From: the human T2T-CHM13v2.0 reference genome, Homo sapiens
Assembly: GCF_009914755.1 (NCBI RefSeq)
Contig: NC_060935.1
Length of the DNA: 64,000 nt
Direction: 5' to 3' (one strand)
In this document: positions 14,600-39,415 of the stretch, in pieces
Layout of the letters: each line of letters starts with the position of its first letter
Numbering within the stretch: position 1 is the first letter of the stretch
Program-made: the position numbers and the translations under genes
Notes under the pieces: generated by a model
Told to the model about the DNA's origin: nothing
What the model saw: only the letters and a program-made list of their open reading frames with translations
The model's database searches: none

Positions 14600-14864
14600 T
14601 CTCCTCTAGGACTGTCTGTGAGAGAAAAAGAAAGAGTCACTCAGAAAGAGAGAAAGGCTACACACACCGGGAGGTTAATGGAAATTAAGGTAGTGGGAGG
14701 GAGAAGAAAAGAAACATTTACTGAGCACTAACTATGGGATAGGCACTGTTCTAAACGCTGTGTGGCGTTACACTCATCCCTGTCTGGGTTACCTGCACAA
14801 AGTCCCAGGGCTATAGAGTTGCCGCAGCAGGAGAGCTCTGCGGTCTGACTCCCCTGGTCTGAGC

Positions 14865-15230
14865 ATTTTTGTGGGGGTGGGGTGGGGGGGGTGGCAGGGA
14901 TAAAGACTTTATTTTCCACTGTATAATCTCAATGTTCACTTGGTTTTTAGTTGTTTTTTTTTTTTTTTAACACAAATTAACCATTTAAAACTTGTAATTA
15001 AATGATACTCAATTACAGAGGAAAATATCCACAGTGCTATAGAAAAAAAAATACCAATGGACACAGGAAATATTATCAACATGACTCATCATTAAATAAA
15101 TGCAGATTGAAGGTAGGAACAATGATATGAGTTAGTGTGCGCTTCACAGGAACATCGAAATTACTCCTCTTATCTTCTCACAGTTGACACTGAGCCTTCA
15201 GTGACAAGCCGGGGCTCTGACAGCTGAGAG
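14865..15230 (-). pseudogene. Retroposed 5'-truncated mRNA 3'-end fragment (parent gene not recognised)
   Basis: Flanked by direct repeats TGGTCTGAGC (14855-14864, 15231-15240) next to a TT/AAAA L1-endonuclease-type site. It has a minus-strand AATAAA (14908-14913) followed by a degenerate C/A-rich tail. It is absent at the paralogous site (50578-50597). Confidence 0.6.
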
Positions 15231-15307
15231 TGGTCTGAGCTTTCTTTTAACCACTCTGCTGTGGCACCCAGTGGCTGTGGCACCCAGTGGCTCAGACAGG
15301 CACTCAC

Positions 15308-15663
15308 CCCCTTCAGCTTGGAGCCATGGTGCTGCTCTCTACTGCCCGTTGCCCATCTCTTTCACGGAAACCCAGTGGCCCTGCTGAAAAGAATGTGACA
15401 ACTTGGAGCCCAGGCCCCTCTGCTTCTGCTTCTCCACCTTGAGAATCCTTATTCTCTTTGAGAATCTTGGTTCTCTTGCAGAGCTGAAGAAAACGATCTC
15501 TGATTGTGACTTTGCCCCAAGGCTTCTGCCCAGCTTCCAGGAATGAGACAGCAGTCTTTCCTAACACCGTGGATAACAGGCGTCTGGAGAGTTTTATTCT
15601 GGAGTACAGACCTCGGAGTGGCTACAGAGCCTCCCTCAGGGCCATTGCCAGAGACCAAGTTCC
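15308..15663 (-). other. Putative non-coding 5'-UTR exon of the first OR8B pseudogene
   Basis: On the minus strand there is an acceptor tttccttttcctcAG (15664-15665) and a donor GTGAGT (15302-15307). The 356-nt segment is conserved with the paralog at 50636-50991. Confidence 0.5.
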
Positions 15664-15696
15664 CTGAGGAAAAGGAAATGTTTGTTTACACTCTTG

Positions 15697-15770
15697 ATCA
15701 TACTTTTAATGTATGTATCATACTTTATGTATGTATCATACATACTTTAATGTATGTATCATACTTTTAA
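15697..15770. repeat. Short tandem repeat, ~20-bp unit (tcatacttt(t)aatgtatgta), about 3.5 copies
   Basis: Visible in sequence and absent from the paralog (51020-51050). Confidence 0.8.
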
Positions 15771-16200
15771 CCTATTCTTTCATTTAGGTTACATCTTTTT
15801 AAGCACAAATAAGGACAAGGCTCTATGGGAAAAACCAATGCTTGCTACCTTGTATTGAGCACTTACTGTATACCAAATACTGTATCCAACCCAGCACCTT
15901 CATACAGACACCAAGAATCCAAAACCAATGTACAAATGATTTTACCTCATTTATTTCTCACAACAACCTCATAAATTAGACATGTTAATCTCCGCTTTAA
16001 AAGTGAGAAAACACACACAGCTAACAGATTCCAGAATCTTAAGTCAAACCCTGATCTGTCTAACTCCAATTTTCATGGTCTTTTCCACTGGCTGTACTAC
16101 CTCCCTGTGAGTGATAATGAATTCTCTGAAGCAGGATTTTTACTTACAAAGATCTCATGAGATTCTTGATAGATAAAAACAAGCAGTCTTAAAGGATGGC

Positions 16201-16578
16201 TGCTATAGTTTGGATACTTGACCTTCCAAACCTCATGTTGAAATTTGATCCCCAATGATGGAGGTGGAGCCTAAGAGGAGAGTTTGAGATACAGGGGCAG
16301 TGCCACCCTAGTGGTAATGAATGAATCCTCACTCTATTAGTTCTCATATTAGCACCTCTCTTTCCTCTCGCTTCCTCCCTATTGCCATGTGATCTCTCCG
16401 TACCAGTTCCCCTGGCTTTTTGCCATGGGTGGAAGCTCCCTGAGGTCCTCACGAGAAGTAGATGCTGGCACCATGCGTCTTGAACAGCCTGCAGAACAGT
16501 AAGCCAAGTAAAAGTCTTTTCTTCATGAATTACCCAGTCTCAGGTATTCTTTCACAGCAACATATGTGGAATAAGACA
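16201..16578 (+). mobile_element. MaLR solo LTR (MSTB-like)
   Basis: Begins tgctatagtttggat...ctcatgttgaaatttgatcccc and ends aattacccagtctcaggtattct...aagaca. Absent in copy B. Confidence 0.8.
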
Positions 16579-16889
16579 AAGGTAGAAAGTGTTAGAGCCA
16601 GGAAAGGTCAAATTAGGGAGTGCTGGGCTTCACAGGAGAAGAGTCATTATTCCACTCACATCCAATATTTACCAAAATTTATACAAACTTTTCCAAGCTA
16701 AAAAAATAAAGAAATCTTCCCTGGTTTTCCTGCACTACCTGTTCATGCAAATTAAGCTTGATAATTAAAAACAAATACTAATTAGATAACTAATATCAAT
16801 TTTTGTCAAGATGTGAAGGCCAGGGAAGGGACCCCACAGCTAATATGTCAGATAATGGGGACTTGAAGAAAGACGTAAACAAAAATAAT

Positions 16890-17150
16890 ATTCCTTCAGC
16901 AAATACATATCGAGCATCTACTATGTCCCAGAAACTCTTCTAAGTTCTTAGTTGGGGGAAAAAAAAAAAAGCAAATTCTTGCCCTCATGAAGTTTGCATT
17001 CAAGTGGGAGAAGACAAAAAAAAAAGATATAAATGAAAGAAAAAAAACATGTAAAATCAAAAGTGCTAGGAAAAAAAAAAAGCCAGGGAGAGGGGTAGAA
17101 AAGGAAGGGGCACAGATTTAATTTTAAATAGAGTAATCTGACATTTCAGC
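16890..17150. mobile_element. L2 fragment
   Basis: ttccttcagcaaatacatatcgagcatctactatgtcccag...tgccctcatgaagtttgcattc. Confidence 0.6.
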
Positions 17151-17276
17151 AATGACTCAGAAGAGATTTGAAAAGTGTTTACTTGATAAGATCAGTTACT
17201 CTTCTAAAACATTAGGCACTCATGGCTTAACCAGCAACCCTCCAAGGCATCACATTTTTATCCTGCACTGTAAATG

Positions 17277-18047
17277 CAATATCTTAAGCCAAATTACTGG
17301 CTCTACGGAAGAAAATTATGAAAATAGTAAGAAGATAAAGGGGCAAGAGAACTGTTGAGGATTCAGATAATCACAAGTCACACAATATTGGTTAATGACT
17401 GAGACTGGTATGAAGGCTAAAAAAGCTTTGTGTAGCAACTTGCATTTTATAGCCCTTACTATGGACTTCTATATATTAAAGATGACAGATTTCATAGCCA
17501 AGAAATAAATCTCTATATGGGGAAATTCAAGCTTCAGTTAGCAGACGGGTTATACATGTTTTTAGTCAGAGTTAAAGGCTACAGTCCTCTTGGAGAAGCT
17601 ATGAAATCATAACACAAAGGCAGAAGTCTTCTTCCAGGCAAGTCCACTGCACACAGGCCAGATGTGCACATGTATGAGTGAAGACTTGCTCACCCTCAGC
17701 TCAGTCTCAGGAATGATAATGTCTCATTGGTCAATGTACACTTGGAACTGTCCACGTCCCAGAGTAGTTCTAATGAATCCCAATCCTTGCTCTCAATCCC
17801 ATTATGCACACTTAAGAAATAGAGAAAAACAATTCATTATCAAAAAATTAATAATAATAAAAATTAAAATTAAAATAATGCAAGTTGCTACACAAAGCTT
17901 TTTTAGCCTTCATACCAGTCTCAGTCATTAACCAACATTGTGTGACTTGTGATTATCTGAATCCTCAACAAGGTCTCTCGCCCCTTTATCTTCTTACTAT
18001 TTTCATAATTCTCTTCCTTAGAGCCAATAATTTGGCTTAAGATATTG
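17277..18047. repeat. Inverted repeat, 170/171-bp arms (17277-17446 and 17877-18047) with a 430-bp spacer
   Basis: The right arm is the reverse complement of the left arm, with about 6 substitutions and 1 indel by manual comparison. Confidence 0.95.
17688..17810 (-). promoter_or_regulatory. Putative promoter/first-exon donor of the first OR8B pseudogene
   Basis: Donor GTGAGC (17688-17693, minus strand), homeodomain-type TAATGA at 17771-17776 and a weak O/E-like TCCCAGAG next to it. The block is conserved with 51772-51890. HD plus O/E sites are the established OR promoter motifs. Confidence 0.45.
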
Positions 18048-20570
18048 GGTCTTGAGACCCAAAGGGCAAAGAGGACCTTAGGGGTTCATTTAACATTTAC
18101 TTTCCTTTAGAAGATTTAGAGGGTTCTTGTATTCCTGATGCCACACCAGGAAAGTTCTTCTGAGGTTTTTGTCACTTCAGAGATGGTTTCCATGGGAACT
18201 TCATTTCAAATGCATCAGCGTTTTATTTCAAATGAACCAGGGTTTCTTCAAACCATTTTCACTGTTGATTTACTCCAATATAAGCACAGAGAAGCATAGA
18301 AATAAATATTCTTGCTTAATTTACTTTTGATGCAGAACTGTCCGTTTTTCCAAAGCTTGAATCTCTGTATAATGGATTCTTTGTTCTATTTATTGCTAAC
18401 ATTAACATTATTAAAATATATATGAGACATGGATTATAACATACTCATGTGGTAAGCATATGTACAATGTGCTTTGTGTATATGGCACATGCATTAACCT
18501 TCAAGTGTCTTGTAGACCGTCAAACAGCACAAGGGTGGTGGTAAAGGCAGTATCCTTCACTCCACATAAAAGAAATGTAGGAATAAGCCACAATTTCAAC
18601 AAAAAACACATGAAAGCCTGTCCAGAGAGAAAAGATGGCAGCTGAAATGTCTGCATATGAAATGATTTCAGTTAGGATCTAAGGATGGGCACAAAATTAG
18701 ACGTATCTACCAGAAGTCATGTGGTTTGCAATTATACTTAATGGTATATTAGTCTTCAATATGTGTGTGTGGCATATTAAAATGCTAATAAAGGATGCAA
18801 AAGAAATCGTTGACTTCCTAAAGAGATTTACAGTCTAATAGAGTCATCTCCCATTCTGTCTCTTTATCCTCCTTACCCACTCAATGTTTCAAAATTCCCA
18901 GTGACCAGTTCTCAATCATCTCTGCCTCTTGCTTCTTAAATGTTTGGTCATCTCATCTCATGACTTTGAAAACATTCTCTACATGGTTAGTACCTAAATT
19001 TGCTCTTACCTTTCTGTTAATTCCCTGTCCTGTGTATATGGCCTCTCTAGCAGAATGTTCCAGTATCATGCTCGTTGTCACCCTGAACTCAACAAGTACA
19101 AAGATTAACATATCACCTTTGTCCCCAAAATAGACATCTGTCTAACCTTCCCAGTTTTATTGGAGAGGAAGTAGAGTGTCGTATTAATATGGTGTTACTA
19201 GTCCTGGTTTGTTTGGGATCCTCCACTTTTAGATCTATTGTCCCAGAAAAATTACTAGTAACAATCCTTTTCACTATGAAATCTATTCCACTTAGGTCAC
19301 AAATTGCATGATTTCTGTGTGCGTTCAGAGCATAAACTTTAGGATCTAACCAACTTCTATGATTACTTGCTCTGCTGCTTACTAGGTGTGTGACATTGAA
19401 AATGTTTAACCTCTTCTGAGCTTTAAATTACTTATCTTAAAATGGGGATAATAATCATAAATGTTGCACTTTCTAGTATGTAGAACATGCAACACAGAAG
19501 GTATTAAAAAGTATTAGGTTGCTATTATTATGTTCAAATCTATGCCCGTGGATGAAAGGAATATTTTAAACTGCCATGGTACACAGGATCAGCTAAAACA
19601 GAGAGAGACTTAAGGCAGGAAGATCAGTTAAGGTGGTTCCACAAGCAGTAGAAATAGTAAAGCAAAAACAGAATCAAGTGATGACATCATGAAGAAACAG
19701 GATTTAATATCTCTATGGTTTGGAGAAGGACAGAAAGGAAAAAAAGCACAAGTGAAACCTGACCAAAATTTTAAGATGAGGGAAGTTTGAGTAGGATGGC
19801 AGAAAATGAACAAATAAGGAATGAGGAAGATAAGAAGCTAAATTTCAGTCTACATGACAAAATGCTGCTCGAACCCTTCAAAAGGAATGATAAGTTTTTA
19901 AAAAAACAGCAATGAAGGAGGGAGAAAAGGAGTCAAAATACAAATTAGGGAATCAGCTAAACATAGGTGAACCCAAAAGAATGATGAATTTTTCCAAGCA
20001 GAAATATTTAAAGACAGAATAGTCAAGGATTAAGAACTAAGCCCTTCCAAAAATACCCACAGTTAGAAAACGGGAGAAGGAAATTGACCAATGGGAATGT
20101 CAGAAAAACCAAGTGGAACAACTGAGAGCAAGATTTAGAAACAAACAGACCTGGAGTCAAATTCCAACTCCATAGCTGTATGAATTTGGAAAATTTATTT
20201 AACATCATGGAGACATAGCGTTTCTATCTGAAAACCAGATATAGTAATAACATGCTTGCAGATGTGCATAAGGTATAAAATTTGAGTTTTGTGAATATTC
20301 TTTTAGTATTTCTTGAATTTATGGAATTTACAGAGGCCAAAAAAAGAGAATTTCAAGAGTGAGCATAACTAATATTTCTGTGCATTCAAGAGGATAAAAA
20401 AGAACTGAAAATGACTTTAAGTAACTTGTACCCTTGCAGTCTAATTTTCTTCTTCCATATCACTATTTATCTACACTTTGACCTTAAATGTTTGGAACAA
20501 TTCATCATTGAAGCCATCTTGGCTTGAAATTTCTTTTGTAAAGCACTTTAAGAACAAACTGTATTTTTTA

Positions 20571-22191
<1,621 letters not shown>

Positions 22192-22200
22192 AAGTGTTCA

Positions 22201-23880
22201 GAGTTTCTATTTCCTCTTTTGTAAATCTTAATAATTAGCATCTTTCAATGAATTTTCTAGTTCTTCTAAATTGTCAACTTTATTGGCATAAAGTTTTTTA
22301 TATTATATATATACACACACACACACAATCTGTAGGATCTGTAGTGATTGACCCTTTCATTCTTGATATTATTAATTTTAGTTTTAGATCTTTTTCTTGA
22401 TTGACCTAAATTTTATTAATTACAAAATTAAAATTTTACTGACTTTTTACAAGAGCTACATTCTGTTTTCATTGATTTTTCTGTATTAATTGTTAATCTT
22501 CTATTTCATTAATTTATACTTCACCCTTATAATTTCTTTCCTTTTACTTTAGGTTCAATTTGCTATTCTGTTTCTAGGTTTTTACAAGGAGGGTCATGAG
22601 TTATTGATTTTAAACTTTTCCTCTCTACTATGAAAATTTTAAATTATAAATTTATCTTGAAAAACTGCTTTAGCTGAATCATACAAGCCCTAGCATTTTT
22701 TTCATTTTTATTCATTTAGAAAATATTTTCTAACTTCTATCATCATTTCTTTTTCAATAATTGGGTTATTTAGAAATGTGTAGTTCAATTTCCAAATATT
22801 TAGAGATTTTACAGAGATCTGTTCTAGTTTCTAATTTAATTCCACAGTAGTCAGAGAACATATTCTGTGTGTTTCAGTACTTCTAAATTTATTGAAACTT
22901 GTTTAATCTCTCAGCATATGGTCTATCTTGGTGAATTTTCCATTGGTACTTGAAAAAAATCTCTATTCTATTGTTGTTGAGTAAGATGTTCTATAAATGT
23001 CATTTTGTTCCTGTAAGTTGATAGTGTTATTTAAGTCTTCTATGTCCATAATACTTTTCTGTCTCCTTGCACTAAAAGAAGAATGTTAAAATATTCAACT
23101 TCAATGATGAATTGTTCTGTCTTTTTTCAGTTCTGTCAATATTTGCTTTATGTATTTGAAGTTCTGTTATTAGTTGGGTACACATTTAAAATTGTGTATT
23201 TTTGGTAAATTGATACTTGAATTGTTATGAAATATCTGTGATGATCTTTGTTAATATTCCAAATTCTGAAGTCTACTGTGTCAGAAATTAATATAGATAT
23301 TCCAGATTTTATTAGTTCTTATACAGTGTTTCTTTTCCCAACCTTTTTTAAAAGAAAATATCTGTCTTTATATATAAAATGTGGTTTATTTAAATTGCAT
23401 TTAGTTGAGTTTTGGGTTTTTTTTAATCCAGTGTGGCTTTTTCTGTCTCTTAATTGGCATGTTTAGACTATTTATATTCAATGTAATTATTGAGTTAAGC
23501 CTACACTCTTGCCGTTTGTTTTCTACCCGTCCCATCTGGTCTGGTCTTTGTTACTTTTTTCTTCTCTTTTCTTGCCTTCTTTTGGTTTATTTGAGTACCT
23601 TTTAGTATTGTTTTTCATCTCTTCTGTTGTCTTATTAACTATATCTCATTTTATTAGATGGTTTCTAGTAGCATTGACAATATGCAACTTTATCAAAATA
23701 TCTTCAACTAATATTTTAATACTTTATGCATGGTATAAAGAACCTCAAAAGAGTATACTTCCATTGCTCCTTCTATCCTTTATGCCATCATTATTGTATA
23801 TTGTATTTTATCGTGCTGTGAACCCTATAATAGGTGGTTCTAATCTTTGCTATAAACAGTAAATTACATACTAAAGAATT
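22201..23880 (-). mobile_element. Old L1M fragment (host of the L1PA2 insertion; continues at about 20440-20580)
   Basis: Decayed antisense ORF2-like T-rich sequence. Confidence 0.65.
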
Positions 23881-23927
23881 TTTTTAATGAAATAAACATT
23901 AGTAGATTATATTTAGGTTCTTTAAGG

Positions 23928-24910
23928 TGATCATGGAAGTCATTTCTCAGATATACCCCTTCAGGAAGTGTGAAAGATTAATCACCCCTGATGCTGCACT
24001 CTAAAATCAATTACCATATTTGCATGGAGGCCATGCTTCCCAAAGACTACATCCAGCCAATGACTAGAAAGAACAGAGATATTAAAGCAGGTCTTTTTCT
24101 GCTAGACATGAGATTTCTCCCATAAAATTTGGCTCAAAAATTCTGTCAGTCTTTCCATCAGCCTGACCAGTTTGCTAGCTCTTTCGGCTTCTTTCAGCTC
24201 CCTCCCTATTTTCCCTGACAGGTGTTAAATATCTAATCTTGTCTTAATATCTGCTTTTCAGAGGACTTGGACCAATGCAAGTGATAATAAATGTGATCCA
24301 ATCAAAAGTACCATAAAATAAGAACTAGAGACTGACTCAACTGATTGTCTTGTGGGTGAAGAGATTGCAATCCTAGCTGATAGGTTGGACATGGATAGTG
24401 CCTGGCACACAGTGACTGCTTAATTGCTAAAGATTTCTTGGGGACCACCTAAGAATATATCCCTGTGGATAGTAACACAGTTGTAGGTGGACTGATTAAA
24501 ACCATTGAAAATAATACCTTCAGAGGCAAAAGAATTGACTGGTTAGTGCTAAGTTGCCTGGCAGACAGATAATGAAAGACTATTAACCATTGGTAATTAG
24601 TAAATAGTTAATAGCTAAGTATTGGAGTTAGAGCACCTTTTGTTTTTGTTTTTGTTTTTGTTTTTGTTTTTGTTTCATGCCAGTTAATAAAGTCACATGT
24701 ACTTTTTTTTCAACTTTTATTTTAAGTTCTGGGGTACATGTGCAGGATGTGTAGGTTTGTTACGTAGGGAAACTTGTGCCATGGTGATTTGCTGCGCAGA
24801 TCAACCCATCACCCTGGAATTAAGCCCAGTACCTTTTTGACAACTTACAAAGAAGTTGTCTTCAGCCTGAGTAGCAGGCTGAAGTCAAGTAGTTGAAGTC
24901 ACAAAGCTCC
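23928..24910 (+). mobile_element. ERVL LTR16-like LTR plus start of internal region
   Basis: ggaggccatgcttccc...cagccaatgact and the terminus tatctgcttttcagaggacttggaccaatgca (about 24279), followed by ERVL-internal-like sequence. Interrupted by the small L1. Confidence 0.55.
24642..24829 (-). mobile_element. Short L1PA8-10-like 3' end with an extra 27-nt segment and a second tail
   Basis: L1 3' end at 24711-24829, A8 tail, unique 24676-24702, then a (CAAAAA)n tail. Flanked by agcacctttt / agtacctttt. Confidence 0.8.
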
Positions 24911-25697
24911 CAAAACTGTTTTCATTTTCCCATTTTACAGATAATGAAGTCAGAGCACATATGACTTGCCCAAAGCAACACAGCAAGAAATTAGCATACC
25001 TCGCCTCCTATGGAAGTCTTTTACCTGCAAATTTCAAAGATGTAATACTACTCTACTGCTGTATGCATTTTCCAACTATTCTAGAGGACTTTGGGAGTCT
25101 CAAAAGGAATTGTAATAATGTGATTGAAACATTTTGGAAAATGAGATATGACAGGGAGAAAAATTTAACACCAAATCCAGAGCAGTTTAGGGTAATGAAC
25201 CAGGAATGAACGCTAAATCTGTCACGGTGATAAAAGACTATTATGCTGGTGTAGCAATCCTAGTCAAGACTTGGATCTCTAATCCCACTCCAAACAACAA
25301 AAGGAAAACCTTCAATGCATGTAAGCAAACTAAATTCAACACCAATTTAATGGGTGGCCTGGCCTCACGGGACTCCCTCTTGCCACCAAGACTCATTATT
25401 AAGAGGTTAGTGTAAAGCCACAGGATTCCACCTACTTCAGGAGAGTAGCCTGGCACCATCACCAGTTGAAGTCCCATCCACAATCAAGGGCAAGCCTCCT
25501 TATAATTACCAAGATACTGGCACATAGCCTCACGAGTTATTTAGAGAATCATCTCTTGCTCTTAGTACTGATCCTCCTAAAGACAGAAACTACAGGCACC
25601 CTCCGCTCAGAACCAGCTGCCTGAAGCTGTTGCATCCTCATTCTGCCTATCCTGGGATTCCATCCCGATGACTGCACACCCCACACTTAGCAATATC

Positions 25698-25874
25698 ATA
25701 TCCCTTACACAGGCAATTGCAAAGCACATGCTCTCAGGTGCCCTGCTGCCTCATCACACAGGCGCCACCTCAGGAGGCTGAGCCTGGAGTGGCCACTGGA
25801 TGAGATGGTCAAGTTTGTAGCTACAGGCTTCCCCCTGTTGCTGATGTCTCTGGCATTTTCCCAAACTCTTCTTG
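25698..25874 (+). pseudogene. Decayed copy of pannexin-3 (PANX3) first coding exon (unprocessed gene fragment)
   Basis: Translation from ATA at 25698 is ISLTQAIAKHMLSGALLPHHTG, then a 1-nt deletion near 25764, then HLRRLSLEWPLDEMVKFVATGFPLLLMSLAFSQ. This is collinear with the recalled PANX3 N-terminus MSLAHTAAEYMLSDALLPDRRGPRLKGLRLELPLDRIVKFVAVGSPLLLMSLAFAQ (about 34/56 identities by my count). Start codon is ATG>ATA and no GT donor follows. Confidence 0.85.
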
Positions 25875-26339
25875 AGAGAGCTGCTGCCATTGTCCACTTT
25901 TGAATTGCAGCCAACAGTTGAAAACCCCATCAGAAGCATTTACTTTGGAGACCAACAAAGAAGAGGCAAAAGAAAAATGTGAGAAGGCTCAGCCTAACTT
26001 ATTGTCGCTTCCAGAATTTTTCAATGAAAAACATGGAAACAAACTTTTGTTTCCAGCATGTATGTTAGATAGAGGTGCCCACAACAGAAACAGAACCATG
26101 TGGTAAAGTAACTGCCTCATAACATTCTCAGTTTCACCTAAATCGTTCTTTATGTTATAATCTCTTTTCACTGCCTAGTGATCCTTGGCTCTTTTCTTGA
26201 AACTTGAAATGTATTAAACTGATAGGACACAGTGCGCTTTGGCCAGACTGGTCAAAAAGAGGATTCCACTAATCAGTGCTTCATGTGGGCTGTATTATTA
26301 GGAAACTCCTGTCCTACAGGTCTAATTCTTTTCTCCTGG

Positions 26340-28430
26340 GCTGAATTTAATGCAAATATTTTTTACAATTAGATTTTAACTTACCTGTTCATTATTTTAG
26401 CTATGATCTTAGCATTAATTTATTAGTGATTGCCCTATTAAGAATTGTTCTATTGAGATATACACATCCTTAACTTTCCACAGTCATTGCAGTTAATAAT
26501 GTACCATTCCATGTAAAATATGGAAATCTTGCAACACATGGATCTGTATCACTCATTTTTATGTTATAGTTTCATATCATATTATACATCAACATACACT
26601 ACAAATTCCACAATAACATGTAATTTTTATTTAAATTATTATATCGTTTCTATGTAAGTTGAGAGAAAACCACAACATTGTAGGTATCCACATTTCTGTA
26701 TCCATTTGCTTGCCAAAGGACATTTAGGTTACTTCCACCTCTTGGCTATTGTAAATAATGCTGCAATGAAGTCGGTGGCGCTAATATATCTTCCAGATCT
26801 TGGTTTCAATTTTTTGTCATATATTCAAAAGTGGAAAAAATAATATTTTTTATTATCCAGATACCTTCCATTCCTGGTGTCCTTCTTTGTTTTTATTTTA
26901 TTATAGTTTTAGGATCAAAGTTTTTAATCTGATTAATTTTTCTTCATCCTGAAGAACTTCCTTTATCTTTTCTTATGTTTAAGTCTGCTGGCAATATATT
27001 ATCTTATTTTTCTTTTATCTCAAAGTATATTTATTTTGCTTTTGTTCTCGAATATGTTTGCTAAATATAGATTTCTGGGTTGACAGTGGTGTTTTGTTTG
27101 TTTGTTTGTTTGTATGTTTTACCACTTTAAAGTGTTGCTGTACACTCTTCAGAATTTCATTGGTTCTGATGAGAAATCATGGTACTCCGTATGTAATATT
27201 TTTTTCTTGCTGATTTTTAAAATTTATTCTTCATATTAGACTTAAACAGTTTCATGATGATCTTCTTTCATAGGGCTTCTTTAAATTAATTCGGCTGGGT
27301 GATTAATTATAACCCCTCCGAATTGCCTGAATTTCATAAAAGAAAGAAAAATGTCTAGCTTTTATGAAATTTAGTAAATTCAGGTGGGTTATTTCTTCAG
27401 ATATTTTTTGCATCTTTTTCTTTCTTTTCTCTCCTTTTGGTATTACGATTAAACATGTTTGACCATTTTATGTCATCTAACAGATCTCTGAGGTTCTGTT
27501 CGTGATCCTCAACCTTTTTCTCTGTGTTTCACCTTACATGATTTCTATCGGTCAGTCTTCAAGTTTGCCTACCTTTTGTTCTGTTATGGCTATTAAGTAC
27601 ATTGCCTCTATTATTTCCAAAATTGTATGTTTCCATTCTAGAACTTCCTTTTTTTAGTGTTTGTATTTATATGTTGAGATTTATCACTCCTCACCTGAGA
27701 CTTTCATTTGGTACACAAAAGTTTTGTTTTACTTTATTGAGGGAATATATAATAACTACTTATAAATTCTTATCTGTTAATTTCAACATCTGGTTCCTCT
27801 TGTGTTCCAATGAATTGATTTTTTTCTTGAGAAATTTTTTTCATTTTCTTAGTTCTTTATATGTCAGGTAACTTGAGATTGTATCCTGGACATCGTAAAT
27901 GTTAAGTGGAAAGTCTGGATTTTTTTTTTTCTCCAGTGAGTTTTGTTTGCCTTCCTTTTACACAGAATTTTCTTGGCTGGGCTTAAAATGCAAGTTTTTC
28001 TTTCTTGAGCATGTCTGATACCAGTCCAGATATTTCATCTTTACTTGAGCTGCTGAGTCTGTGCTGCACGTGCATGATTTAGGTCAAAGATGTGAGTGAA
28101 TCCAGTTTGGGGATCTCCTCTCTGGTTCATTTGTTTCCAGAACTTCCCCAGCTCTCTTCAGTATTTGGGATTTCTTGACTTTGCTTTTCTTGTTTCCTGA
28201 GTTAGAGAGGCTATGAATTTTTCCACATGGGCACTGTGTAGGCTACACTTGGTGCCAAGGAAAAAGCTACCAAGATGGGCGCTTACTTAGTATCGCTCCC
28301 CATCTCCCCTCCTCCAAGTGATTCTTCATTCCCTACCAGGATCAATCTGCTTCTGTTCATTCTACAGCACCTTCAGGGATTTTTGCTTTTCTTTAATTAT
28401 GTCTACATTTAATTTTCCTGTAGGGGTGTC
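26340..28430 (-). mobile_element. Old L1M fragments
   Basis: Decayed antisense L1-like sequence (gtctgctggcaata...tttatctcaaag). Confidence 0.6.

Positions 28431-37922: not shown

Positions 37923-39415
<1,493 letters not shown>

What the first reader, a model, noticed from the sequence alone, without database searches (positions are those of the whole stretch)
25300..25874. Decayed PANX3 exon-1 and upstream-region relic inside an OR cluster
Seen: 25698-25864 translates, with one 1-nt deletion and ATG>ATA, to a peptide ending LDEMVKFVATGFPLLLMSLAFSQ. The ORF track misses it. Known: this matches the recalled pannexin-3 N-terminus/TM1, PANX3 lies next to the OR8 cluster on 11q24.2, and it is a RUNX2 target. 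Similarity stops where PANX3 exon 1 should end, and there is no poly(A) or TSD, so DNA-level duplication is more likely than retrotransposition. An AAGCCACA (one mismatch from a RUNX AACCACA site) sits about 280 bp upstream, with a TATAAT at 25501. Inference: an old OR-cluster duplication carried the 5' end of the flanking PANX3 gene and left it between copies A and B, possibly with residual bone/cartilage regulatory activity.
Basis: partly seen in the sequence, partly recalled or inferred. Interest (0 to 1): 0.8.

Follow-up and report, generated by a model that had tools for sequence, protein, structure and literature searches.

The report
Dead PANX3 promoter/exon-1 copy in OR8 cluster
This stretch is a long-dead partial copy of the start of the pannexin-3 gene, one of four such leftovers that olfactory-receptor tandem duplications strewed upstream of the real gene; it is a real but ordinary kind of genomic fossil.

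Summary
Window 24913-26066 (+) is homologous to the PANX3 promoter, 5'UTR, coding exon 1 and a little of intron 1. It is 66% identical over 1039 aligned positions (E about 1e-108). The translated piece hits solved Pannexin-3 chains at residues 28-58 (E 4e-7).

The copy is dead. Its start codon is ATA, it has a 1-nt deletion and a premature TGA, and the splice donor GT has become GA.

Homology covers about 650 bp of untranscribed promoter, so the copy arose by DNA-level duplication and not by retrotransposition.

It is not unique. Four relics lie 33 to 148 kb upstream of PANX3, at about -4422, 24913, 67128 and 109432 in window coordinates. Three of them follow an OR8A-type gene. Two of them (A and C) also keep intron 1 and exon 2. 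No copy was found elsewhere in the genome. An old partial PANX3 duplicate was probably carried along as the OR8B/OR8A unit multiplied.

I found no sign of retained regulatory function:
- The promoter part is no better conserved than the dead coding part.
- The one canonical RUNX motif of the PANX3 proximal promoter is mutated here.

Chromatin data and other mammals could not be examined. This is an ordinary duplicated pseudogene fragment that RefSeq does not annotate.

The parts
24913..25566 (+). Relic B: homologue of the PANX3 proximal promoter (PANX3 143390-144091 in window coordinates)
   Evidence: BLASTN 24913-25889 against 143390-144415, 66% over 1039, E about 1e-108. Five-copy MAFFT alignment.
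25294..25299 (+). ACAACA at the position of the only canonical RUNX-type ACCACA in the PANX3 proximal promoter (143783-143788); the motif is lost here
25415..25422 (+).
25501..25508 (+).
25537..25548 (+). TTATTTAGAGAA, 12/12 identical to the PANX3 element that lies 30 bp upstream of the annotated PANX3 start (144062-144073)
   Evidence: and the hub annotation for the gene start at 144092.
25567..25697 (+). Homologue of the PANX3 5'UTR
   Evidence: 62.5% identity to PANX3.
25698..25875 (+). Homologue of the PANX3 exon-1 coding part (aa 1-60). Disabled by ATG>ATA at 25698-25700, a 1-nt deletion after 25762, TGA at 25779-25781, and donor GT>GA at 25876-25877
25876..26066 (+). Remnant of PANX3 intron 1, after a deletion of about 120-140 bp shared with relic A. 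The related features lie outside the window and so cannot be listed as parts. In window coordinates they are: relic A -4422..-1414 (promoter, exon 1, intron 1, exon 2; after OR8A2P); relic C 67128-69586 (the same parts; after OR8A3P); relic D 109432-111241 (promoter, exon 1, start of intron 1; after OR8A1); and the parent PANX3 (start 144092, ATG 144221, exon 1 ends 144401, exon 2 is 145644-145787).
   Evidence: Local alignment against shuffles: versus relic A score 51 against 13.3+/-1.4; versus relic D 21 against 12.8+/-1.6 (0/200 shuffles reach it); versus PANX3 intron 18 against 13.0+/-1.5 (3/200). Colinear. Outside copies.

Best explanation
Window 24913-26066 is a non-functional, non-processed (DNA-duplicated) fragment of PANX3. 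It comprises about 650 bp of proximal promoter, the 5'UTR, coding exon 1 and a stub of intron 1.

Inferred mechanism. An old tandem duplication in the OR8B/OR8A array had its distal breakpoint just past PANX3 exon 2. The upstream copy therefore received a truncated 5' piece of PANX3, and the last copy kept the whole gene. Later duplications of the OR8B(-)/OR8A(+)/relic unit spread the fragment. There are now four relics (A, B, C, D), followed by OR8Q1P and the intact PANX3.

History of relic B. Relic B is the sister of relic A. After the two split, B lost its OR8A-type neighbour, the distal part of intron 1 and exon 2 by deletion.

Status. Since duplication the fragment has most likely evolved neutrally and does nothing. 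The homology, the four copies and the disabling mutations are shown. The single origin, the order of events and the age are inferred. The age is roughly 80 million years for the A/B split and over 100 million years for the first duplication, using a recalled neutral rate of about 2.2e-9 per site per year.
For: Homology to the PANX3 promoter and exon 1:
- 66% identity over 1039 positions, E about 1e-108.
- Whole-genome search, 68% identity, E 3.5e-59 to 7.1e-59.
- Protein level: Pannexin-3 aa 28-58, E 4e-7; 22/29 and 12/27 identities to PANX3 exon 1; genome-wide search with PANX3 exon 1, E 1.1e-5.

Disabling changes: ATA start, 1-nt deletion, TGA, and donor GT>GA.

DNA-level origin:
- Untranscribed promoter is included.
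- Intron 1 is retained in relics A, C and D, with a remnant in B.
- No poly(A) tract follows the relic.

Four relics and no others:
- Of the 19 matches to PANX3 143297-145797 in the whole genome, 1 is self, 7 are pieces of the four relics, and 11 are 30-60 bp low-information matches elsewhere.
- A profile search of the 214 kb around the window found no sixth copy.

Position relative to OR genes: relics A, C and D each lie 1.4-6 kb downstream of an OR8A-type gene, and PANX3 lies after OR8Q1P.

Tree: ((A,B) 100, (C,D) 91, PANX3). The PANX3 branch is short (0.136) against 0.27-0.34 for the relics. A and B share a deletion.

Common end: homology ends in both A and C just after exon 2 (145764-145798), although intron 1 remains alignable at 58-62%. 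The sequence after the relics is homologous among units and is not PANX3.

Neutral decay:
- 0 of 12 PANX3 CpGs are kept in relic B.
- The invariant-column fraction is 0.31 in the promoter and 0.28 in the dead coding part.
- Clustering of invariant columns is not significant by the 12-column window measure (P 0.07-0.14). The longest-run measure gave P 0.10 for all five copies and 0.02 for the four relics.
Against: - No chromatin, transcription or cross-species data could be consulted, so 'does nothing' is an inference from sequence alone.
- Some short promoter blocks are identical in all or nearly all five copies: TTATTTAGAGAA, AGCAATC, CAGCTGCCTGAAGCT. The longest run of columns invariant among the four relics (9) was reached by only 2% of column shuffles. 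Weak constraint is therefore not excluded.
- The end of homology coincides with the end of exon 2. It could partly reflect loss of detectability rather than the true breakpoint.
- The (C,D) grouping and the short internal branches make the order of duplications uncertain.
- The region further than 50 kb upstream of the window was covered only by the whole-genome search, which scores only the best candidates. A fifth, more decayed relic there could have been missed.
Confidence: 0.9

Rival explanations
1. The relic keeps part of the PANX3 promoter's activity. It would be a weak RUNX2- or homeodomain-responsive promoter or enhancer, active in bone, cartilage or tooth cells, or the source of an unannotated transcript.
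For: - The TATA-like box is 12/12 identical to PANX3.
- AAAGCCACAG and the TAATTA motif are kept.
- The Panx3 promoter is reported to contain Runx2 sites. I saw this only in a passage of PMC10045377 and as the title of Bond et al. 2011 in the reference list of PMC11070431. The primary paper is not held.
- The longest invariant run among the relics is slightly above the shuffle expectation (P 0.02).
Against: - The only canonical ACCACA in the proximal 920 bp of PANX3 is ACAACA here.
- The promoter part is no better conserved than the frameshifted coding part: 0.31 against 0.28 invariant columns, and 70% against 72.5% identity to PANX3.
- None of the 12 PANX3 CpGs is kept.
- RefSeq lists no functional element or transcript here (hub annotation).
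- The splice donor is lost, so no PANX3-like spliced transcript can form.
Confidence: 0.06
2. The four relics arose from several independent partial duplications of PANX3, rather than from one ancestral junction copied along with the OR unit.
For: - Relic-to-relic distances (K2P 0.48-0.60) exceed relic-to-PANX3 distances (0.40-0.45).
- The internal branches of the tree are short.
Against: - The larger relic-to-relic distances are explained by a slowly evolving PANX3 branch (0.136).
- A and C, from different clades, end at the same place just after exon 2.
- Sequences after the relics are homologous among units A, B, C and D and are not PANX3.
- Three relics share the same OR8A-type upstream neighbour.
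Confidence: 0.08
3. It is a processed (retrotransposed) PANX3 pseudogene, or a chance resemblance.
For: None beyond the similarity being strongest within the exon.
Against: - About 650 bp of untranscribed promoter are homologous.
- An intron remnant is present, and sister copies carry the whole of intron 1.
- There is no poly(A) tract.
- E-values are 1e-108 for DNA and 4e-7 for protein against the PDB.
Confidence: 0.01

Closest known systems
PANX3 (pannexin-3), 118 kb downstream on the same strand
   Same: Promoter, 5'UTR, exon 1 and the start of intron 1 are colinear and 66-70% identical. The encoded piece corresponds to the N-terminus and first transmembrane helix region (aa 1-60), with 22/29 identities over aa 28-56.
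   Different: It has no start codon, is frameshifted, has a premature stop and has lost the splice donor. Exons 2-4 are absent from this copy. It cannot encode a pannexin.
Duplicated (non-processed) pseudogene fragments left at the borders of tandem or segmental duplications
   Same: It is a partial copy of a flanking single-copy gene, with promoter and intron included and without poly(A). It sits at the unit boundary of a tandem gene-family array and was multiplied together with the unit.
   Different: Nothing categorical. The particular feature is that four copies of the same border fragment survive and mark the unit ends of the OR8B/OR8A array.
Olfactory-receptor pseudogenes of the same cluster (OR8B9P, OR8B10P, OR8A2P, OR8A3P)
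   Same: They are dead members of the same tandem units and of similar age.
   Different: They derive from a different parent gene family. The OR pseudogenes are annotated in RefSeq and the PANX3 relics are not (hub annotation).

Membership tests
Non-processed (DNA-duplicated) pseudogene fragment of PANX3 | Significant similarity to a parent exon | tested here: met
   PDB Pannexin-3 aa 28-58, E 4e-7. BLASTP against PANX3 exon 1, E 5e-14 and 3e-6. Genome-wide search, E 1.1e-5.
Non-processed (DNA-duplicated) pseudogene fragment of PANX3 | Homology extends into untranscribed flank (promoter) | tested here: met
   24913-25566 aligns to PANX3 143390-144091, about 70% identity over 445 aligned promoter columns.
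Non-processed (DNA-duplicated) pseudogene fragment of PANX3 | Intron sequence retained | tested here: met
   Relics A, C and D: 0.35-1.4 kb of intron 1 by BLAST. Relic B keeps only a remnant of about 190 bp; the evidence is weak against PANX3 (3/200 shuffles), clear against D (0/200) and against A (z about 27).
Non-processed (DNA-duplicated) pseudogene fragment of PANX3 | Disabling mutations or no intact reading frame | tested here: met
   ATA start, 1-nt deletion, TGA, donor GT>GA.
Processed (retrotransposed) pseudogene | Lacks promoter and introns; has a poly(A) tail and target-site duplications | tested here: not met
   Promoter and intron homology are present, and no A-run follows the relic.
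Functional pannexin gene (Pfam Innexin PF00876) | Intact ORF covering the four-helix channel domain | tested here: not met
   Only an exon-1 equivalent is present, and it is broken. No homologues of exons 2-4 were found in the window. The PF00876 genome scan did not report the locus.
RUNX2-responsive PANX3-type promoter | Canonical RUNX core (ACCACA/TGTGGT) at the conserved position | tested here: not met
   PANX3 ACCACA at 143783-143788 is ACAACA at 25294-25299. The near-site AAGCCACA is kept, but it is equally non-canonical in PANX3. Which site Bond et al. 2011 tested could not be read.
RUNX2-responsive PANX3-type promoter | Open chromatin, RUNX2 occupancy or transcription initiation in skeletal cells | not testable with these tools

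The most novel reading that the evidence does not exclude
The four PANX3 promoter relics are not inert. Spaced through the OR8B/OR8A array, with the TATA-like box and the TAATTA motif intact in three of the four (both are altered in relic A), they could act as tissue-specific promoters, enhancers or boundary elements, or as decoy sites for skeletal transcription factors. They could give unannotated transcripts or influence PANX3 or OR expression.
Probability: 0.05. Interest if true: 0.5.

Novelty: new member of a known kind. Interest (0 to 1): 0.25.

Why it matters
Taken alone, it adds an unannotated pseudogene fragment to a well-studied genome.

Taken together, the four relics are convenient markers. 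They show that the human OR8B/OR8A sub-cluster grew by repeated tandem duplication of one unit. The distal edge of that unit cut PANX3 just after exon 2.

They also give a non-OR, presumably neutral sequence for ordering and dating those duplications. Such a sequence is probably less affected than the OR coding regions by selection and gene conversion.

Finally, they warn anyone mapping PANX3 promoter reads or motifs that four paralogous promoter copies of 60-70% identity lie nearby.

Tried and rejected
- One search failed because of a coordinate slip of one base. It was corrected.
- The Pfam Innexin (PF00876) scan of the whole genome returned only PANX2 and one weak hit. It did not detect even PANX3 or PANX1, so it says nothing about the relics.
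- The whole-genome search with relic C was swamped by an unrelated repeat of about 100 bp and gave nothing useful.
- Rfam at gathering thresholds found nothing in 24000-27500.
The region beyond -50 kb was therefore covered only by the whole-genome searches.
- Bond et al. 2011, the primary paper on Runx2 and Panx3, is not held. The position of the tested Runx2 site is therefore unknown to me. My recollection of 'about 275 bp upstream' is unverified.
- Relics of PANX3 exons 3-4 were sought by tblastn of all 120 plus-strand ORFs of at least 25 aa of the PANX3 gene against 214 kb. The hits outside PANX3 that match relics come from exon-1-region ORFs, one short intron-1 ORF in relic C, and an out-of-frame exon-2 match in relic A. 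All other outside hits belong to ORFs with many scattered matches, which I read as interspersed repeats.
- A test for clustered conservation in the promoter was not significant by the 12-column window measure.
- Literature searches found no description of PANX3 pseudogenes or fragments. Of the 10 papers holding both 'PANX3' and 'pseudogene', I saw only the listing and abstract starts, plus one text look-up in PMC6042310, where PANX3 does not occur in the main text.
They are now described in the text of the last part.

Full report
**What is at the coordinates**

The window is chr11:124,496,001-124,560,000 of T2T-CHM13 (hub note; confirmed). Reading 25698-25781 in one frame gives ISLTQAIAKHMLSGALLPHHTGATSGG followed by TGA. 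Reading from 25778 in the frame shifted by one base gives LSLEWPLDEMVKFVATGFPLLLMSLAFSQ....

- The second piece was searched against the 177,635 distinct sequences of solved structures. Its four best hits are Pannexin-3, residues 28-58, E 4e-7 to 1e-5. The other 24 of the 28 rows are named Pannexin or Pannexin-1, at about 1e-3.
- Against the PANX3 exon-1 translation taken from the same genome, the two pieces are 12/27 (E 3e-6) and 22/29 (E 5e-14) identical.

This includes the ATG>ATA change (25698-25700) and the single-base deletion after 25762.

**Extent of the homology**

The real PANX3 lies at window coordinates 144092-153020 (hub annotation). In the sequence:
- the ATG is at 144221;
- exon 1 ends at 144401, followed by GTAAGT;
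- exon 2 is 145644-145787, and its translation is identical to Pannexin-3 residues 62-108.

Sensitive BLASTN aligns window 24913-25889 to PANX3 143390-144415, 66% over 1039 positions, E about 1e-108. The relic therefore holds four parts:
- about 650 bp homologous to the untranscribed promoter (24913-25566);
- the 5'UTR (25567-25697);
- the exon-1 coding part (25698-25875);
- a short stretch beyond the exon.

The splice donor GT is GA at 25876-25877.

The five-copy alignment shows why. After a deletion of about 120-140 bp shared with a sister copy, homology to intron 1 resumes up to about 26066. Local alignment of 25890-26400 against dinucleotide shuffles supports this:
- versus the sister copy, score 51 against 13.3+/-1.4;
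- versus relic D, 21 against 12.8+/-1.6 (0 of 200 shuffles reach it);
- versus the PANX3 intron, 18 against 13.0+/-1.5 (3 of 200);
- versus relic C, 17 against 12.6+/-1.4 (2 of 200).

Promoter homology, an intron remnant and the absence of a poly(A) tract exclude a processed pseudogene.

**It is one of four**

The same searches revealed three more copies outside the window:
- relic A at -4422..-1414;
- relic C at 67128-69586;
- relic D at 109432-111241.

I searched the whole genome with PANX3 143297-145797 and got 19 matches. One is self, 7 are pieces of these four relics, and 11 are 30-60 bp matches elsewhere; ten of those fall on an A-run of the intron, and one of 59 bp lies on chromosome 6.

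The genome-wide protein search with exon 1 gave six matches: PANX3, PANX1, relic B (E 1.1e-5), relic C (E 4.7e-4, two stops), PANX2 (E 0.58) and relic D (E 2.2). Relic A was not seen at the protein level.

A profile of the five copies found no sixth copy in the 214 kb from -50 kb to +164 kb. The five training copies match by construction.

A tblastn with the OR8A1 reading frame places the OR genes. They run in this order along the + strand:
- OR8B4 (-), OR8B8 (-);
- OR8A2P (+), then relic A;
- OR8B9P (-), then relic B;
- OR8B10P (-), OR8A3P (+), then relic C;
- OR8B12 (-), OR8A1 (+), then relic D;
- OR8Q1P (+), then PANX3.

Each relic thus sits at the distal end of an OR8B/OR8A unit. Unit B alone has no OR8A-type remnant at E<1e-3. 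Its upstream homology stops at about 24913. In unit C, by contrast, colinearity with the PANX3 upstream region runs for about 10 kb, 134002-145796 against 63670-69585.

**Origin**

Relics A and C also contain the rest of intron 1 (58-62% identity over 0.4-1.6 kb) and a decayed exon 2. In both, homology ends within a few tens of bases after exon 2, at PANX3 145764-145798.

Intron 1 is still alignable. A common end in copies from two different clades therefore points to one ancestral breakpoint at the start of intron 2. I cannot exclude some loss of detectability.

The sequences that follow the relics are homologous among units A, B, C and D and are not PANX3-derived.

A maximum-likelihood tree of the shared 794 columns gives ((A,B) 100, (C,D) 91, PANX3). 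The PANX3 branch is short (0.136), and the paths from the centre to the relics are 0.27-0.34. A and B share the intron deletion. B and D lack distal intron 1 and exon 2. Since their sister copies A and C have them, these parts were lost later.

The simplest history is as follows. One tandem duplication truncated PANX3 in the upstream copy. The OR8B/OR8A/relic unit then multiplied, and individual copies suffered deletions.

Using a recalled mammalian neutral rate of about 2.2e-9 per site per year, the branch lengths suggest roughly 80 million years for the A/B split and over 100 million years for the first duplication. This is an inference. Alignments at 60-70% identity make such dates rough minima.

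**Regulatory claims**

It is homologous, but it is equally non-canonical in the parent.
- The only canonical RUNX core (ACCACA) in the 920 bp before the PANX3 ATG, at 143783-143788, reads ACAACA in relic B (25294-25299). Only relic D keeps it.
- The element 30 bp upstream of the annotated PANX3 start, TTATTTAGAGAA, is 12/12 identical at 25537-25548.

That the Panx3 promoter holds Runx2 sites I saw only as a statement in a review passage (PMC10045377) and as the title of Bond et al. 2011 in a reference list (PMC11070431). The primary paper is not held. I cannot say which site was tested.

As an internal control for constraint, I compared the promoter part with the demonstrably dead coding part:
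- The fraction of columns invariant in all five copies is 0.31 in the promoter (484 columns), 0.30 in the 5'UTR (129) and 0.28 in the coding part (181).
- Identity of relic B to PANX3 is 70%, 62.5% and 72.5% for the same three parts.
- Clustering of invariant columns does not exceed column shuffles in 12-column windows (P 0.07 and 0.14).
- The longest invariant run is marginal (P 0.10 for all five copies, 0.02 for the four relics).
- None of the 12 PANX3 CpGs is kept in relic B.

No RNA family matches the region, and RefSeq lists no element here (hub annotation).

I therefore see no evidence for residual function. Chromatin, ChIP, CAGE and cross-species conservation could not be examined, so the point stays open at low probability.

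**Known or new**

RefSeq, as given by the hub, annotates none of the four relics. Five full-text searches returned no paper that describes a PANX3 pseudogene or fragment: 'PANX3' with 'pseudogene'; with 'olfactory receptor' and 'tandem duplication'; with 'OR8A1'; with 'segmental duplication'; and 'pannexin' with 'gene fragment' and 'olfactory receptor'. For the ten papers from the first search I saw only the listing and abstract starts, plus one look-up. GENCODE and RepeatMasker could not be checked.

The kind of object, a partial non-processed pseudogene at the edge of a tandem duplication, is well known.

**Verdict**

The feature is real. Biologically it is ordinary, and it most likely has no function. 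Interest 0.25.

Noticed in passing
L010:6316-6618 (window -3684..-3382, outside the window): Relic A carries an insertion of about 300 bp directly in front of its TATA-like box. The insertion is absent from relics B, C, D and from PANX3. From memory it resembles a Tigger/MER-type DNA-transposon remnant; this label was not tested.
   Followed up: no
window 14605-24913: Unit B has no OR8A-type remnant between OR8B9P and its PANX3 relic (tblastn with the OR8A1 ORF, E<1e-3). Unit C has 12.9 kb between the corresponding anchors, and unit B has 4.4 kb, which suggests a deletion.
   Followed up: partly
window 17277-18047: The self-BLAST shows this 770-bp stretch matching its own reverse complement (68.6% over 794, E 5e-100). 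It is therefore a large imperfect palindrome or inverted repeat. A smaller one lies at 27309-27392.
   Followed up: no
window 38247-39405 and 20586-21077: These stretches match 87102-88260 (96.6%) and 86164-86655 (97.2%) outside the window. This is far higher than the 60-75% identity of the surrounding duplication units. Both lie in stretches NCBI masks as repeats, so they are probably young interspersed repeats rather than recent duplication.
   Followed up: no
L011:9403-9505 (window 69403-69505, outside the window): An element of about 100 bp just inside the distal end of relic C has over 100 matches genome-wide. These include tandem arrays on contig C4 near 5.676 Mb and on C23/C24 near 1.36/1.42 Mb.
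   Followed up: no
window 71741-71890 (-), outside the window, inside LOC100421985: A weak OR-like match to the OR8A1 ORF (42% over 50 aa, E 3e-4).
   Followed up: no
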